Below, one piece after another: positions 34,234 through 58,736 of a stretch of 64,000 nucleotides of DNA. The DNA comes from an uncultured Planctomycetaceae bacterium. Lineage in GTDB: Bacteria > Planctomycetota > Planctomycetia > Planctomycetales > Planctomycetaceae. Within the stretch, counting starts at the first letter, position 1. Every line of letters begins with the position of its first letter. Both the position numbers and the translations under genes were made by a program. The notes under the pieces are model-generated. The model did no database searches, had not been told where the DNA came from, and saw only the letters and a program-made list of their open reading frames with translations. The stretch is taken from positions 8,491 through 72,490 of the forward strand of contig CAYVFI010000032.1 in NCBI GenBank assembly GCA_964450955.1. The letters are read 5' to 3'.

Positions 34234-34592
34234 CGTAATACCAGGTCAGCAACCACGCGGTTGCGTCTCCCGGCAGGCCCGTGAGAACTGACTGACTAAG
34301 ATCCTTGACGAGTGACGAGCAAACAAAAACAGAAACAGGACGTGGCGGACGTGGCCCATTTAGATAGCGAACAGGGGGCTGCGTTCTTCCAAAAAATGAT
34401 TGCAATCATCCAGGAAAGACAGCAGGTGGCCCATCTCACGGCCTTAAAGTCGGTACGGCCGGCCTAACAGCGACCAGAGCGACCTGTGTGCGTCGCACCC
34501 GCAACGTCGATCGGCAATCGATCGACTCTCGAATATCCGCGGCAAGCCCTGGCCTTGCGCCCCGGCGCCCCAACGACACTGGCGTGGCTTGT

Positions 34593-34660
34593 TGCGGCTC
34601 GGAATGCTGCGGCTCGGAATGTTGCGGCTCGGAATGTTGCGGCTCGGAATGCGCACGAGG
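34593..34660. repeat. Tandem direct repeat, 15 bp unit GTTGCGGCTCGGAAT, about 4.5 copies (one variant GCTGCGGCTCGGAAT)
   Basis: Read directly in the sequence. It lies about 180 bp upstream of the ECF sigma factor start. Confidence 0.8.
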
Positions 34661-42002: not shown

Positions 42003-42239
42003 ACGGTGTGAGCCGACGTGGTTGAGGTACTTTGCGCCTGTTTGTTTTAGTGAGCGCTGCTGCCTTCCGCGACGGCGTCATCGATCGGTGAGCCCGTCGG
42101 TGAGGAACAACGCGTTCAGCCGCTGAAACATCCGCGGGAGCCACTGTTGCTTCTTAGGCCTCGGTTTCCCGTTGCCGATGTTGTAGCCCGGGGTTAGAGC
42201 TTCGCAGTTCGTCGTCGAGACGCCAGATGAGGTTTTGTT

Positions 42240-42550
42240 CCTCGCTCACGCTTCGGGTTTTCATTGTTGCCGGGTTGTCCGGCTTTCGAGCGCGAGCAAC
42301 TATTTGGTCGATCATGTCCCGTTGGAAAGCGGCATCTTTGGAGTCAGCGTTCACTGTGTTTCTCGCAATGGTAACCCGACGCGTAAGCGAGGAAGCTCCT
42401 GCTTACGTTCTCGGCTCCTGCTTACGTTCTCGCTTACGCTTCGGGTTGTCATTTTTGGTTCCTGCTTACGTTCCTGCTTACGTTCTCGCTTACGTTCTCG
42501 CTTACGCTTCGGGTTGTCATTTTTGGTTCCTGCTTACGCTTTGGGTTTCC
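42240..42550. repeat. Cluster of REP-like palindromic repeats (left flank of the RAYT gene)
   Basis: Multiple copies of CTCGCTTACGCTTCGGGTT and the inverted partner GGTAACCCGACGCGTAAGCGAGG. There are 12-mer sub-repeats (CCTGCTTACGTT / CTCGCTTACGTT) and a duplicated ~60 bp block. Confidence 0.8.
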
Positions 42551-43031
42551 GGTCTTGTCCTTCAAGTGTGTACTGGACAACTTGATCAAGTCCGTCATCA
42601 TCAAAGATCCAACGAATACTGCCGCGTTCGGCCCACCAATTTTCCGTTTTCTGTGGCAGTGCGGCTTCTTTGAGTCGGCGAGTACACCACGCTTTCAGAT
42701 CAGCTCGAACTTTTTTTGGTGGAGTCTCGAACGCTCCCACGACTGCATGCATGTGGTTGGTCCGACAATTGACGGCGTGGCAAATCCACTTCCGATGATC
42801 GCAAGTTTCGCGAATCTGGGTTTCGACAATTTGACGTTGTTTATGGCTGAGAATCCTGGCTTCTTCACGCATCTTTGCCGCAGCCTCCAGTTCACGCACG
42901 GGATCCGGTAGCTGCCAACCCTTCTGATATTCGACCCATCCACGCTGATCGCCCGGCAGCCAGGTTCCGTAAGTCGCGATGGTGATAAAGAAGGCAATTG
43001 GATCGTTCATCAGGTAACTCCTTCGGAGCAA
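42534..43031 (-). mobile_element. REP-associated tyrosine transposase (RAYT; HuH-Y1, IS200/IS605 TnpA-like)
   Basis: 165 aa ORF with the HuH motif NHMHAVV. The C-terminal block WAERGSIRWIFDDDGLDQVVQYTLEGQ matches the RAYT consensus W-x-R-x-x-S...L...Y-x3-N/Q, including the catalytic Tyr. It is flanked on both sides by REP-like repeats. Confidence 0.7.
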
Positions 43032-43094
43032 GTGGTCCTAACACTGGAAACCCGAATCGTCAGCGAGGGGCGCACGGGATGCCATCCAGTATAT

Positions 43095-43235
43095 CCTCGC
43101 TTACGCTTCGGGTTTCTGTTTGCTGTCGTCCTCGCTTACGCTTCGGGTTTTCATTGTTGGGTGTCGCTTACGCTTCGGGTTTTTATTGCTGTGGTCTCGG
43201 TTGCTTTTTGGCTTGGTAACCCGACGCGTTAGCGA
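43095..43235. repeat. Cluster of REP-like palindromic repeats (right flank of the RAYT gene)
   Basis: Three copies of (C)CTCGCTTACGCTTCGGGTT followed by the inverted GGTAACCCGACGCGTTAGCGAGG. Confidence 0.8.
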
Positions 43236-43364: not shown

Positions 43365-43458
43365 CGGGAATGGATGGGAATCGAACCCACCTGGCGACTT
43401 TTCAGCCGCCACAACGGATTTGAAATCCGCGGCAGTCACCAGATCTGCGAACACTCCC
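43365..43458 (-). tRNA. selC: Candidate selenocysteine tRNA (anticodon UCA)
   Basis: The minus-strand sequence is GGGAGTG-TTC-GCAG-ATCTGGTGA-CTGC-C-GCGGA-TTTCAAA-TCCGT-TGT-GGCGGC-TGAAAA-GTCGCC-AG-GGTGGG-TTCGATT-CCCATC-CATTCCC-G. The acceptor stem is 7 bp and the T stem 6 bp, giving a 13 bp coaxial acceptor/T domain. The anticodon loop is UUUCAAA, with U33, anticodon UCA and A37. The variable arm is long (6 bp stem, 6 nt loop). The T-loop is TTCGATT, the discriminator is G73, and CCA is not encoded. The D-arm fold is ambiguous by eye. Confidence 0.65.
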
Positions 43459-56484: not shown

Positions 56485-56655
56485 ATCCAGGTCCCTTCGG
56501 ACGTCTGTGTTTTGATATCGAAATCGTGGTCCAACACCATCCTGATGCCAGACCCACAAGTTTTAGCGGATGGCTGTTTGTTCAATCAAACGGCAGGCGG
56601 TCGTCTATCGGCAGAAGCGGGCTTTTATGGACGTTAGTGACTGTGCCCGATGGAT

Positions 56656-57231
56656 TCACATGCCACGCACTGTAGCCACTTCCTGCAGAAACGCCTCCGA
56701 TTCCGCGCGGCCGCGCAGGCGGAGAAACGGGACGTGGTTGAATTCGCCGCGGTCGGTCTCAATGGCTGCATAGCGGCGTTTGACTCGGTGGTAAGACGTC
56801 AGCGTCCAAAGCAACACGGACTCGCGGCTCATGAATGTCCGTCGGAAGGTCTCGCGGTTGCCGGTTCCGGGCCACAATTCCTGCTTTGATCGGATTCGGC
56901 GGATCGCTCGCTGAGTCGCCTGGGTGACGTTGCGGGTAAACGACATGTCCAGCCAAATGATGGCTGTGGCTCGTGACCATTTCGTTTTGAACGACTTGCT
57001 GTGGTAGTTGCCGTCCAGAATCCACCGGTCGGGGGCGAGTGCCTTGTCAAGCTTTTCGGTTAGCTCGTCCGCCGTCGATTCTTCCCAGTTTGGTTTGTGG
57101 TACAGCCGGTCCATCTCGATGTGTGGGGAACCAAGAAGCTTAGCCAGTTTCTTTGCGAACGTTGACTTACCGCTACCGCTGGTTCCGACAACGTTGACGC
57201 GATCAAGTTGTCGGAGTGATGGCGGGGACAT
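56656..57231 (-). CDS. P-loop NTPase (adenylate-kinase-like AAA family ATPase)
   Basis: The start is MSPPSLRQLDRVNVVGTSGSGKSTFAKKLAKLLGSPHIEMDRLY, with Walker A motif GTSGSGKST. The start codon lies inside the first copy of a ~255 bp tandem duplication. Confidence 0.65.
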   Translation of the reverse strand: MSPPSLRQLDRVNVVGTSGSGKSTFAKKLAKLLGSPHIEMDRLYHKPNWEESTADELTEKLDKALAPDRWILDGNYHSKSFKTKWSRATAIIWLDMSFTRNVTQATQRAIRRIRSKQELWPGTGNRETFRRTFMSRESVLLWTLTSYHRVKRRYAAIETDRGEFNHVPFLRLRGRAESEAFLQEVATVRGM

Positions 57232-57720
57232 GTTGGTTCTTACGGCGTGCGCGCGAGTTGGTGGTGGTTGGGTTTTGTTTGCGAGGTTCGAGAAGCCCGG
57301 CATCTGAAATTACGGAACACGTCTGTTGGCCGAAGAGAGCTTAAAGGTACGAAGATTGTCGCTCTACTGAATGAGATGCCGGGCTTCTACCCAGCGGCAC
57401 GCAGCACCATTCAACCGGCCCAGCGACCACGAGCGCTAACCACCGCCCCCACCGGATACCGATTTGGGAGTGACAGCGGGAACATGTTGGTTCTTACGGC
57501 GTGCGCGCGAGTTGGTGGTGGTTGGTTTTGTTTGCGAGGTTCGAGAAGCCCGGCATCTGAAATTACGGCACACGCCTGTTGGCCGAAGAGAGCTTAAAGG
57601 TACGAAGATTGTCGCTCTACGGATGAGATGCCGAGCTTCTGCCCAACGCCACGCAGCACCATTCAACCGGCCCAACGATTGCGAGCGCTAACCACCAACC
57701 CCACCGGATACCGATGCAAC
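57228..57720. repeat. Tandem direct duplication, two copies of about 240 bp with a period of about 255 bp
   Basis: Copy 1 runs about 57228..57466 and copy 2 about 57483..57717. Both begin ACATGTTGGTTCTTACGGCGTGCGCGCGAGTTGGTGGTGG. Identity is over 90% with scattered substitutions. Confidence 0.85.
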
Positions 57721-57734
57721 GGAACGTTGCTGCC

Positions 57735-58736
57735 TTAGAATTGGGAGAGGAAGCGGACGTCGTTTTCGTAGAAGCGGCGGATGTCGTTGATCTCGTGGCG
57801 CTTCATGCAGAAGCGTTCGACGCCCAGGCCGAAGGCGAAGCCGGAGACTTTTTCAGGGTCGTATCCGACGGCTTTGAACACGTTCGGATCGACCATCCCG
57901 GCGCCACCGATTTCCAGCCATGTGTCGCCCCACTTCATGTCCACTTCGACAGATGGTTCTGTGAACGGGAAGAAAGACGGACGGAACCGAATCTCAACGT
58001 CTTCTCCCAGGTAACCGCGGGCGAACATCGACAGCACACTTTTCAGTTCGGCCATGTTGACAGTTTCGCTTACCATCAGACCTTCCATCTGATGGAACAT
58101 CGGTGAGTGCGTCGCGTCCCATGTGTCGGGTCGGTAAACGCGGCCCAGTGAAACGATACGAATCGGAGGCGCGGTCTTTTCCATGGTTCGAATTTGAACC
58201 GTGGACGTCTGGCTTCGCAGCAGCATTGGTCCGCCCGCCGCTGATTGAGCGGCGGCCAGGTAGAAGTTGTCCAGCGGATCACGCGCGGGGTGGTCTTCAG
58301 GGATGTTAAGCGCTTTGAAGTTGTGGTGTTCGTCTTCGATCTCACGACCATCGACCACAGTGAAGCCGAATCGGCCCATCAGGTCTTTAAACGTATCCAG
58401 CGTTTGCGTAAGCGGATGACGTCGGCCAAGTTGATATTTCTTGCCAGGCAGCGTGACATCCAGACCCTCGACGGCAGCCTTGGGTGTGTCCAGGTTGGAC
58501 CTGGCGGAATCGAAGTGAGCCTGAACTTTGTTCTTGGCTTCGTTGAACTTCTTCCCAACAACCGGTCGTTCTTCCGGAGTCGCGTTCTTCATTCCCGCCT
58601 GAAGATCGCGCAGGCGGCCTTTCTTCTTGCCAAGGAATTGGATCCGGACCTCTTCCAGTGCGGCCGCAGAATCAGCGGCGTCGATAGCCGCGATGGCGTC
58701 CTTTTCGAATTGGTCGAAAGTGGCAAGAAGGTCCAT
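57735..58736 (-). CDS. pheS: Phenylalanine--tRNA ligase alpha subunit
   Basis: 333 aa ORF with full-length PheS similarity, including the class II motifs ...FHQMEGLMV... and ...[11 protein letters not shown]... Confidence 0.9.

What the first reader, a model, noticed from the sequence alone, without database searches (positions are those of the whole stretch)
57228..57720. Tandem ~255 bp duplication covering the start codon and leader of a P-loop NTPase gene, with an internal 14 bp long-range inverted repeat
The intergenic space between pheS and the adenylate-kinase-like ATPase gene consists almost entirely of two more than 90% identical copies of a ~240 bp unit. Copy 1 contains the gene's ATG (plus 57229..57231) and the first codons. 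Copy 2 reiterates the same ATG context upstream, where it gives only a short ORF. Each copy contains GAAGCCCGGCATCT ... AGATGCCGGGCTTC, a 14 bp inverted repeat enclosing about 70 nt, so the leader is structured (candidate attenuator or riboswitch-like element, or an RNA gene) and has been duplicated. A recent duplication could change expression, or it may mark slipped or unequal recombination.
Basis: seen in the sequence. Interest (0 to 1): 0.5.

Follow-up and report, generated by a model that had tools for sequence, protein, structure and literature searches.

The report
Old tandem duplication of gene leader
The non-coding spacer between the pheS gene and a small ATPase gene, including that gene's start codon, was copied head-to-tail in one uncultured planctomycete lineage; this is a real but ordinary structural mutation, not a recognisable riboswitch or RNA gene.

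Summary
Two head-to-tail copies (57213-57466, 254 nt, and 57467-57715, 249 nt; 92.8% identical) fill the pheS–NTPase spacer on the minus strand. The gene-proximal copy carries the real ATG and the first 19 nt of the ORF. Each copy holds a 98-nt hairpin closed by a 15-bp stem.

It is not an assembly artefact: the copies differ at 18 positions, and a separately assembled JGI contig is 100% identical across them.

It is derived and not recent. Thirteen assemblies of the sister species (about 19% divergence at four-fold sites) carry one copy. The two copies are closer to each other than to that orthologue, and about 7% apart.

More distant relatives have spacers of 0 nt (TGATG stop/start overlap), 78 nt and 162 nt, all without the hairpin. 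The spacer is therefore a young, growing operon spacer.

There is no Rfam match, no compensatory pair, no conserved ORF and no other copy in 185,579 species genomes, which argues against a riboswitch, an RNA gene or a MITE. The stem's only two changes give G·U pairs on the gene-sense strand, so a transcript-level hairpin is plausible. The duplication also creates a 24-codon upstream ORF. Interest is low.

The parts
57213..57466 (-). Copy A, the gene-proximal repeat unit (254 nt). On the sense strand it has a G-rich 5' part, the 98-nt hairpin, an A/C-rich leader without a Shine-Dalgarno sequence, the real ATG and the first 19 nt of the NTPase ORF.
57467..57715 (-). Copy B, the distal repeat unit (249 nt), 92.8% identical to copy A. 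It carries a reiterated pseudo-start region.
57291..57388 (-). Proximal 98-nt hairpin with perfect 15-bp arms (57291-57305 / 57374-57388) and a 68-nt loop. Sense-strand MFE is -37 kcal/mol, z = -5.0. An in-frame upstream ATG (57303..57301) lies in its 3' arm.
57544..57640 (-). Distal 97-nt hairpin with arms 57544-57558 / 57626-57640. One substitution gives G·U on the sense RNA and C·A on the antisense RNA. Sense z = -4.0.
57411..57485 (-). Upstream ORF created by the duplication. It starts at the reiterated ATG (57485..57483) and runs for 24 codons (MFPLSLPNRYPVGAVVSARGRWAG). It reads across the B/A junction and stops at TGA 57413..57411, 22 nt before the proximal hairpin.
57716..57730 (-). 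Small hairpin GCAACG-UUC-CGUUGC just after the pheS stop and outside the repeat. The distal duplication boundary abuts it. L027 has CGAACG-UCC-CGUUCG, in which two base pairs are swapped compensatorily.
56656..57231 (-). P-loop NTPase gene (191 aa; AAA_18 / adenylate-kinase-like; nearest NCBIfam model is 'DNA topology modulation protein', below its cut-off). The start at 57231 agrees with the N-termini of homologues.
57735..58736 (-). pheS (phenylalanine-tRNA ligase alpha subunit, 333 aa), the last gene of a co-oriented rpmI-rplT-pheS cluster upstream of the spacer.

Best explanation
This is a fixed, lineage-specific, head-to-tail duplication of the whole non-coding pheS–NTPase spacer plus the first 19 nt of the NTPase ORF. 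It arose by illegitimate recombination or replication slippage in a spacer that was already expanding. The distal breakpoint sits against a small hairpin, and a relative has its own 20-nt duplication at the same spot.

Shown:
- The copies are adjacent and 7% diverged.
- They are closer to each other than to the single orthologous copy in the sister species.
- They are present in a second, separate assembly.

Inferred:
- The NTPase was ancestrally co-transcribed with, and translationally coupled to, pheS (TGATG overlap in L112).
- In this clade a spacer grew between the two genes.
- The spacer acquired a 98-nt stem-loop that acts at the RNA level on the gene-sense transcript. It most likely serves as an intercistronic stabiliser or partial barrier that uncouples NTPase expression from the highly expressed rpmI-rplT-pheS message.
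- Downstream of the stem-loop lies an A/C-rich leader without a Shine-Dalgarno sequence that serves as the translation start region.
- The duplication places a second hairpin and a second start region upstream. The second start region opens a 24-codon upstream ORF that ends 22 nt before the proximal hairpin.
- The gene-proximal copy is the working one. The net effect on NTPase expression is probably small (nearly neutral, or mildly modulating).
For: - Two copies are present at 92.8% identity and there is no third copy.
- The sister lineage (NTPase 92% aa identity, pheS 94.8% nt identity) has a single 248-nt spacer, identical in 12 metagenome assemblies plus one GTDB representative.
- Three-way comparison gives 9 A-unique changes (3 of them at the junction), 10 B-unique, 24 sister-unique and 2 sites where all differ. 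This places the duplication after the split.
- Four-fold-site divergence between the species is 0.19 (105/547), against 0.072 between the copies.
- JGI contig L014/L114 (80.9 kb) is 100% identical over 5.3-6.4 kb, including both copies.
- Spacer lengths form a series: 0 nt with TGATG overlap (L112), 78 nt (L009), 162 nt sharing only the first ~90 nt of the unit (L027), 248 nt, then 503 nt.
- L027 has a 20-nt tandem duplication of the post-pheS hairpin plus ATCGG.
- No sigma-70-like promoter or intrinsic terminator is predicted in 56500-58000, which fits co-transcription.
- The stem's two changes are G·U-compatible only on the sense strand. Hairpin z-scores are better for sense than antisense (-5.0/-4.0 against -4.0/-2.8).
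- Since the duplication the proximal hairpin has 0-1 changes against 4-5 in the distal one.
Against: - There are no expression data, so co-transcription, the role of the hairpin and translation of the upstream ORF are all inferred.
- The promoter and terminator scans use E. coli-type consensus sequences, which may not apply to Planctomycetota.
- Only three versions of the unit exist, so covariation cannot be assessed. The strand argument rests on two substitutions (chance about 0.25).
- The proximal/distal asymmetry in changes is not significant (p about 0.06-0.1).
- A 250-nt tandem repeat persisting long enough to diverge by 7% might mean selection retains both copies, which would contradict 'nearly neutral'.
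- Gene conversion between the copies could make an older duplication look younger.
Confidence: 0.8

Rival explanations
1. The ~250-nt unit is a cis-regulatory structured RNA (riboswitch, attenuator or protein-binding leader) controlling the NTPase. The two tandem copies are kept by selection as a two-stage switch, like tandem riboswitches. Translation of the upstream ORF would open the predicted long-range helix that pairs AUGGUGCUGCGUG with CGCGCGCACGCCGU just upstream of the real start.
For: The unit folds into a closed structure: the 15-bp stem flanked by a predicted outer helix (cols 57-76 with 206-225) in all three versions. The hairpin is the most conserved part of the unit. Both copies have survived to 7% divergence even though tandem repeats tend to be deleted (inference from general knowledge). 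The upstream ORF stops right at the 5' strand of the outer helix.
Against: There is no Rfam family at the gathering threshold, and the two sub-threshold matches (E 2.9 and 9.5) are chance-level and not in the repeat copies. None of 70 predicted pairs is compensatory, and the inner-loop helices break in the sister species. The hairpin occurs only in two sister species and is absent from syntenic spacers in L027, L009 and L112. Whole-unit divergence is about 0.7 of the four-fold-site rate. The 3' leader shows indels and near-neutral divergence.
Confidence: 0.08
2. The unit, or its 98-nt hairpin, is an independent small RNA gene on either strand that happens to lie in the spacer and was duplicated.
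For: The hairpin is stable (z down to -5.0). Sequence in the hairpin loop is well conserved (GAGCGACAATCTTCG, ACCTTTAAGC) between the species.
Against: There is no predicted promoter or terminator on either strand, no Rfam match, and no other copy or homologue in 185,579 species genomes beyond the orthologous site. The repeat boundaries include the gene's start codon and 19 nt of ORF, so what was duplicated is the leader and start region, not a self-contained gene.
Confidence: 0.05
3. The hairpin is a miniature inverted-repeat transposable element (15-bp terminal inverted repeats around 68 bp) that inserted into the spacer. The two copies would then reflect mobile-element activity.
For: It has perfect 15-bp terminal inverted repeats. 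It is present in the window and sister lineages but absent from L027, where the spacer is about 100 nt shorter.
Against: The flanks GGTTCG / ACCCAG show no target-site duplication. The 19-mer spanning loop and arm finds the full unit only at the orthologous site of one other species among 185,579 genomes, and the other 10 hits share only 19-25 nt. There is nothing in viral contigs, plasmids or phages, and no further CM hits in the window or 11 related loci. The repeated unit is 254 nt with gene-derived ends, not 98 nt.
Confidence: 0.03
4. The duplication is an assembly artefact (mis-expansion of a single copy).
For: Two short-read Logan contigs (L015 and L121) end about 30 nt past the pheS stop.
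Against: The copies differ at 16 substitutions and 2 indels, and the differences sort cleanly by phylogeny; an artefact would give identical copies. A separately assembled 80.9-kb JGI contig has the identical two-copy sequence. Both Logan contigs break in the ~30-nt segment shared by the two co-occurring lineages, and one of them is from the single-copy lineage. The breaks are therefore explained by k-mer sharing, not by the repeat.
Confidence: 0.02

Closest known systems
Bacterial tandem segmental duplication by illegitimate recombination or replication slippage (gene duplication-amplification; own knowledge, e.g. reviews by Andersson & Hughes and by Reams & Roth)
   Same: It is a head-to-tail repeat with no long homology at the junction. 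The state is derived relative to a single-copy sister. One breakpoint lies next to a small hairpin.
   Different: It is very small (254 nt) and almost wholly non-coding. It is fixed and has diverged by 7%, unlike the large, unstable, transient duplications usually described.
Intercistronic stem-loops that set differential expression within operons (REP hairpins in malE-malF; puf operon hairpins of Rhodobacter; own knowledge)
   Same: A strong hairpin lies between co-oriented genes that are overlapping or coupled in relatives. It has no U-tract, so it is not a classical terminator.
   Different: It occurs at a single locus and does not belong to a repeated family. It has a long 68-nt loop. There are no experimental data.
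Tandem riboswitch architectures (e.g. tandem glycine aptamers; own knowledge)
   Same: Two consecutive copies of a structured leader lie upstream of one ORF.
   Different: There is no conserved aptamer core, no covariation and no Rfam match. The element is found in two species only. The distal copy also carries a copied start codon and ORF fragment, which marks an accidental segmental duplication.
Regulatory upstream ORFs in bacterial leaders (e.g. the iraD leader ORF, PMC5574718, listed)
   Same: A short ORF precedes the main cistron in the same transcript.
   Different: Here the upstream ORF is a by-product of copying the gene's own start. It ends 180 nt before the real ATG, and nothing shows that it is translated.
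MITEs
   Same: It has 15-bp perfect terminal inverted repeats around a short core.
   Different: There is no target-site duplication and there are no dispersed copies.

Membership tests
Tandem segmental duplication | Two directly adjacent, co-oriented copies with significant identity | tested here: met
   57213-57466 and 57467-57715, 92.8% identical, no spacer between them
Tandem segmental duplication | Single copy at the orthologous site in a close relative, with the paralogues closer to each other than to the orthologue | tested here: met
   13 sister-lineage sequences have one copy. Distances are 21 differences A to B, against 35 and 36 to L001.
Tandem segmental duplication | Not produced by assembly | tested here: met
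   There are 18 differences between the copies. A separate JGI contig is identical. Raw reads are not available.
Riboswitch or other curated cis-regulatory RNA family (Rfam) | Match to a curated covariance model | tested here: not met
   Nothing in the region at gathering thresholds. The only hits at E up to 10 (snoTBR5, Dictyoglomi-1) are chance-level and lie outside the repeat copies or at their edge.
Riboswitch or other curated cis-regulatory RNA family (Rfam) | Secondary structure supported by compensatory changes | tested here: inconclusive
   0 of 70 (sense) and 0 of 67 (antisense) predicted pairs are compensatory. Only three near-identical sequences exist. The stem shows two G·U-preserving changes on the sense strand.
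Riboswitch or other curated cis-regulatory RNA family (Rfam) | Recurrent association with the same gene across lineages | tested here: not met
   The hairpin is absent upstream of NTPase orthologues in L009, L027, L112, L013 and L028.
Riboswitch or other curated cis-regulatory RNA family (Rfam) | Ligand- or signal-dependent conformational switch | not testable with these tools
   Needs in-line probing or reporter assays.
Intrinsic (Rho-independent) terminator | G+C-rich short-loop hairpin followed by a U-tract | tested here: not met
   The scan found 0 sites in 56500-58000. The stem is followed by CGAACCUCGC, and the loop is 68 nt.
MITE or dispersed repeat | Terminal inverted repeats | tested here: met
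   15-bp perfect arms.
MITE or dispersed repeat | Target-site duplication and multiple dispersed copies | tested here: not met
   The flanks are not duplicated. The only copy outside the window, among 185,579 species genomes, is at the orthologous locus. There is none elsewhere in the window.
Small protein-coding gene | ORF conserved in frame, with substitutions biased to synonymous sites | tested here: not met
   No ORF is shared by A, B and L001 in any frame. Shared DNA is read in different frames because of indels.

The most novel reading that the evidence does not exclude
The ~250-nt unit could be a clade-restricted cis-acting RNA that gates read-through and translation from the pheS operon into the NTPase gene. 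On this reading the duplication is kept by selection. It adds a second gate, and an upstream ORF borrowed from the gene's own start. Translation of that ORF would melt the long-range helix masking the real start region, which lacks a Shine-Dalgarno sequence. This would be a newly born, two-tier leader caught early in its evolution.
Probability: 0.08. Interest if true: 0.5.

Novelty: new member of a known kind. Interest (0 to 1): 0.2.

Why it matters
The main value is as a cleared candidate. A striking 500-nt repeat with a perfect 15-bp stem turns out to be an ordinary, moderately old segmental duplication of a fast-evolving operon spacer, not a new RNA class.

There is also a modest evolutionary point. 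Across close relatives the pheS–NTPase junction goes from an overlapping stop/start (TGATG) to spacers of 78, 162, 248 and 503 nt. Part of that growth is by tandem duplication, once of 20 nt (L027) and once of 254 nt (the window). This shows how a long structured leader and an upstream ORF can arise from nothing inside an operon.

For annotation, gene callers are misled by it. They report products of 214-215 aa or 152 aa instead of 191 aa.

Tried and rejected
- **Rfam:** cmscan on the whole window at gathering thresholds, and on 57000-57950 at E up to 10, found nothing relevant.
- **tRNA/tmRNA:** ARAGORN found only tRNA-Sec at 43.4 kb.
- **Tandem Repeats Finder:** it did not list the 253-nt repeat. 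The repeat is nevertheless unambiguous by the repeat finder and blastn.
- **Promoter and terminator scan:** 0 sites of either kind.
- **Six-frame translation of the unit in both species:** no shared ORF.
- **Genome-collection scan with TTTCAGATGCCGGGCTTCT:** 11 loci, of which only L020 (the sister species) holds the unit. The rest share only the 19-25-mer.
- **Other collections:** the same pattern found nothing in viral contigs. The unit found nothing in plasmids or phages by blastn.
- **Metagenome protein scan with the NTPase:** it returned only relatives at 53% identity or less, most below 50%, and was of no use for this spacer.
- **Exact-protein look-ups of the 191-aa NTPase:** not on record, because callers chose other start codons.
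- **Covariance model of the hairpin:** searching the window and 11 related loci recovered only the three known instances.
- **RNAalifold on both strands:** no compensatory pairs.
- **Literature searches:** no directly comparable described case and no planctomycete promoter or terminator rules were found.
- **Upstream in-frame ATG in the hairpin arm (57303) as the true start:** considered and rejected. Homologue N-termini align to the ATG at 57231. The extension is read in different frames in the two species and is out of frame in copy B.

Full report
**1. What is in the sequence**

Both flanking genes lie on the minus strand. pheS (333 aa; tRNA-synt_2d and Phe_tRNA-synt_N) occupies 57735-58736. 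A 191-aa P-loop NTPase occupies 56656-57231; its Pfam AAA_18/AAA_17 matches and its nearest NCBIfam model, 'DNA topology modulation protein', are all below cut-off. rpmI, rplT and proA lie upstream of pheS on the same strand.

The 503-nt spacer contains two head-to-tail copies. Copy A is 57213-57466 (254 nt) and copy B is 57467-57715 (249 nt). They are 92.8% identical, with 16 substitutions and 2 single-base indels. Copy A reaches 19 nt into the NTPase ORF, whose ATG is at 57231..57229. Copy B therefore carries a copy of the start region.

From that copied start a 24-codon ORF (57485..57411) reads across the B/A junction. It stops 22 nt before the hairpin of copy A.

Each copy holds a 15-bp inverted repeat around a 68-nt (copy A) or 67-nt (copy B) loop. 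It is perfect in copy A (57291-57305 / 57374-57388) and has one substitution in copy B. A perfect repeat of this kind is expected about 0.009 times per 64 kb, and it is the only one of that length in the window.

The remaining 19 nt of spacer include a small hairpin (57716-57730) just after the pheS stop. There is no third copy of the unit in the window.

**2. It is real**

An assembly artefact would produce identical copies. These differ at 18 positions, and the differences sort cleanly when the sister species is used as a reference. A separately assembled 80.9-kb JGI metagenome contig (L014/L114) is 100% identical to the window over 5.3-6.4 kb, including both copies.

Two short-read Logan contigs end about 30 nt past the pheS stop. 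One belongs to the single-copy lineage. Both break inside the ~30-nt stretch that the two co-occurring lineages share. That is a k-mer graph effect and has nothing to do with the duplication.

**3. It is derived and not recent**

The closest relative has an NTPase 92% identical in protein and pheS 94.8% identical in DNA. Four-fold degenerate sites differ at 105 of 547 positions, or 0.19. Its spacer is a single 248-nt copy, identical in 12 independent metagenome assemblies and in the GTDB representative L020.

In the three-way alignment 9 positions are unique to A (3 of them at the junction), 10 are unique to B and 24 are unique to the sister; at 2 positions all three differ. A and B are therefore each other's closest relatives, at 21 differences against 35 and 36. 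The duplication happened in the window's lineage after the split.

The 7% divergence between the copies is roughly 40-50% of the distance to the sister species. It is not a fresh event. Gene conversion could make it look younger than it is, not older.

**4. Where the unit comes from**

More distant syntenic relatives show a graded series of spacers:
- In L112 (pheS 84% identical) the pheS stop overlaps the NTPase start (TGATG), which suggests a translationally coupled operon.
- In L009 (NTPase 77% identical) the spacer is 78 nt and unrelated in sequence.
- In L027 (NTPase 79% identical) the spacer is 162 nt. It shares only the post-pheS hairpin and the first ~90 nt of the unit (ATCGG…CCGGTTGRATGG), with no 98-nt hairpin.

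L027 has its own 20-nt tandem duplication of 'hairpin + ATCGG'. This lies at the same place as the distal boundary of the window's 254-nt duplication.

The small hairpin differs between the window (GCAACG/CGTTGC) and L027 (CGAACG/CGTTCG) by two swapped base pairs. This is the only compensatory change seen anywhere in the region.

The spacer is thus a young, expansion-prone piece of non-coding DNA inside what was an operon. The 98-nt hairpin and the A/C-rich 3' leader are found only in the window lineage and its sister.

**5. What it is not**

- **A known RNA family.** No Rfam family matches at gathering thresholds. At E up to 10 there are only two chance-level matches. One lies in pheS and the other straddles the coding end of copy A; neither lies within the repeat copies proper.
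- **A structure supported by covariation.** RNAalifold on the three versions gives 70 (sense) and 67 (antisense) predicted pairs, and none is compensatory. The small helices predicted inside the hairpin loop break in the sister species.
- **A strongly constrained element.** The unit as a whole differs from the sister at 0.136 per site, against 0.192 at four-fold sites (z = 1.9). Constraint is weak at most. The 3' leader carries indels and near-neutral divergence, and the hairpin is the best-conserved part.
- **A protein-coding gene.** No reading frame is shared among the three versions.
- **A dispersed repeat or MITE.** There is no target-site duplication. A 19-mer spanning loop and arm finds the unit only at the orthologous locus, among one genome for each of 185,579 species. 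It finds nothing in viral contigs, and the unit finds nothing in plasmid or phage collections. A covariance model of the hairpin recovers only the three known instances.
- **A classical terminator or an obvious promoter.** No sigma-70-type promoter or intrinsic terminator is predicted on either strand. That scan uses E. coli-type rules.

**6. What the hairpin probably is**

The stem has changed twice, once in copy B and once in the sister species. Both are C-to-U changes in the 5' arm of the gene-sense RNA. They keep G·U pairs on that strand and would give C·A mismatches on the other.

Shuffle z-scores are also better for the sense strand (-5.0 and -4.0) than for the antisense strand (-4.0 and -2.8). 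This is thin evidence, since two events have about a 0.25 chance of pointing the same way. It does favour a hairpin that matters in the pheS-to-NTPase transcript.

The ancestral state was coupled, and the stem has no U-tract. The most likely role is therefore an intercistronic stem-loop. It would stabilise the upstream message or partly block read-through, uncoupling the NTPase from a highly expressed ribosomal-protein/pheS transcript. After it comes an A/C-rich, G-poor leader without a Shine-Dalgarno sequence, which serves as the start region. These steps are inferred, not shown.

Since the duplication the proximal hairpin has 0-1 changes and the distal one 4-5. This hints that the proximal copy is the functional one, but the difference is not significant.

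**7. Consequence of the duplication**

It adds a second hairpin and a second start region upstream. The latter opens a 24-codon upstream ORF ending 180 nt before the real ATG. I judge the effect to be small.

The alternative is that both copies are kept by selection as a two-stage leader. In that case translation of the upstream ORF would open the predicted helix between AUGGUGCUGCGUG and CGCGCGCACGCCGU next to the real start. This cannot be excluded. The survival of a 250-nt tandem repeat to 7% divergence is the one observation that points that way. I give it about 8%.

**8. Verdict**

It is not recent, and the riboswitch, attenuator and RNA-gene readings have no support. This is an ordinary tandem segmental duplication in a fast-evolving operon spacer of an uncultured Planctomycetaceae lineage, and its interest is low.

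Noticed in passing
window 42095-43200: A dense cluster of ~32-nt direct and inverted repeats (core CCTCGCTTACGCTTCGGGTTTTCATTG) sits immediately beside a tRNA-Sec gene (43365-43458, minus strand). It is seen in Tandem Repeats Finder rows and in several long imperfect inverted repeats.
   Followed up: no
window 34590-34652: A tandem array of a 15-nt unit (TGCGGCTCGGAATGC), 4 copies at 95% match. Its context was not examined.
   Followed up: no
L027 64-103: A relative (NTPase 79% identical) has an exact 20-nt tandem duplication of the post-pheS hairpin plus ATCGG (CGAACGTCCCGTTCGATCGG, twice). It lies at the same spot as the distal breakpoint of the window's 254-nt duplication, which suggests a slippage-prone site.
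   Followed up: partly
L112 3499-3505: In a more distant relative the pheS stop codon overlaps the NTPase start (TGATG). The two genes therefore look translationally coupled there, whereas they are 503 nt apart in the window.
   Followed up: partly
window 57232-57303 (minus strand) and L001 4001-4069: An ATG inside the hairpin's 3' arm is in frame with the NTPase in both species, despite a -1 and a -2 indel between them. Gene callers therefore report 214-215-aa products, or 152 aa in the JGI contig. Homologue N-termini and the frame-shifted middle segment argue that this extension is not coding.
   Followed up: partly
L015 end and L121 end: Two Logan short-read contigs, one from each sister lineage, end within 2 nt of each other about 30 nt past the pheS stop. 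This is the stretch the two lineages share, consistent with both lineages co-occurring in those samples and breaking the k-mer graph.
   Followed up: partly
L109-L111 (pheS 90% identical): In this intermediate lineage the NTPase is not downstream of pheS at all; an unrelated gene on the opposite strand follows. Synteny at this junction is therefore labile within the clade.
   Followed up: no
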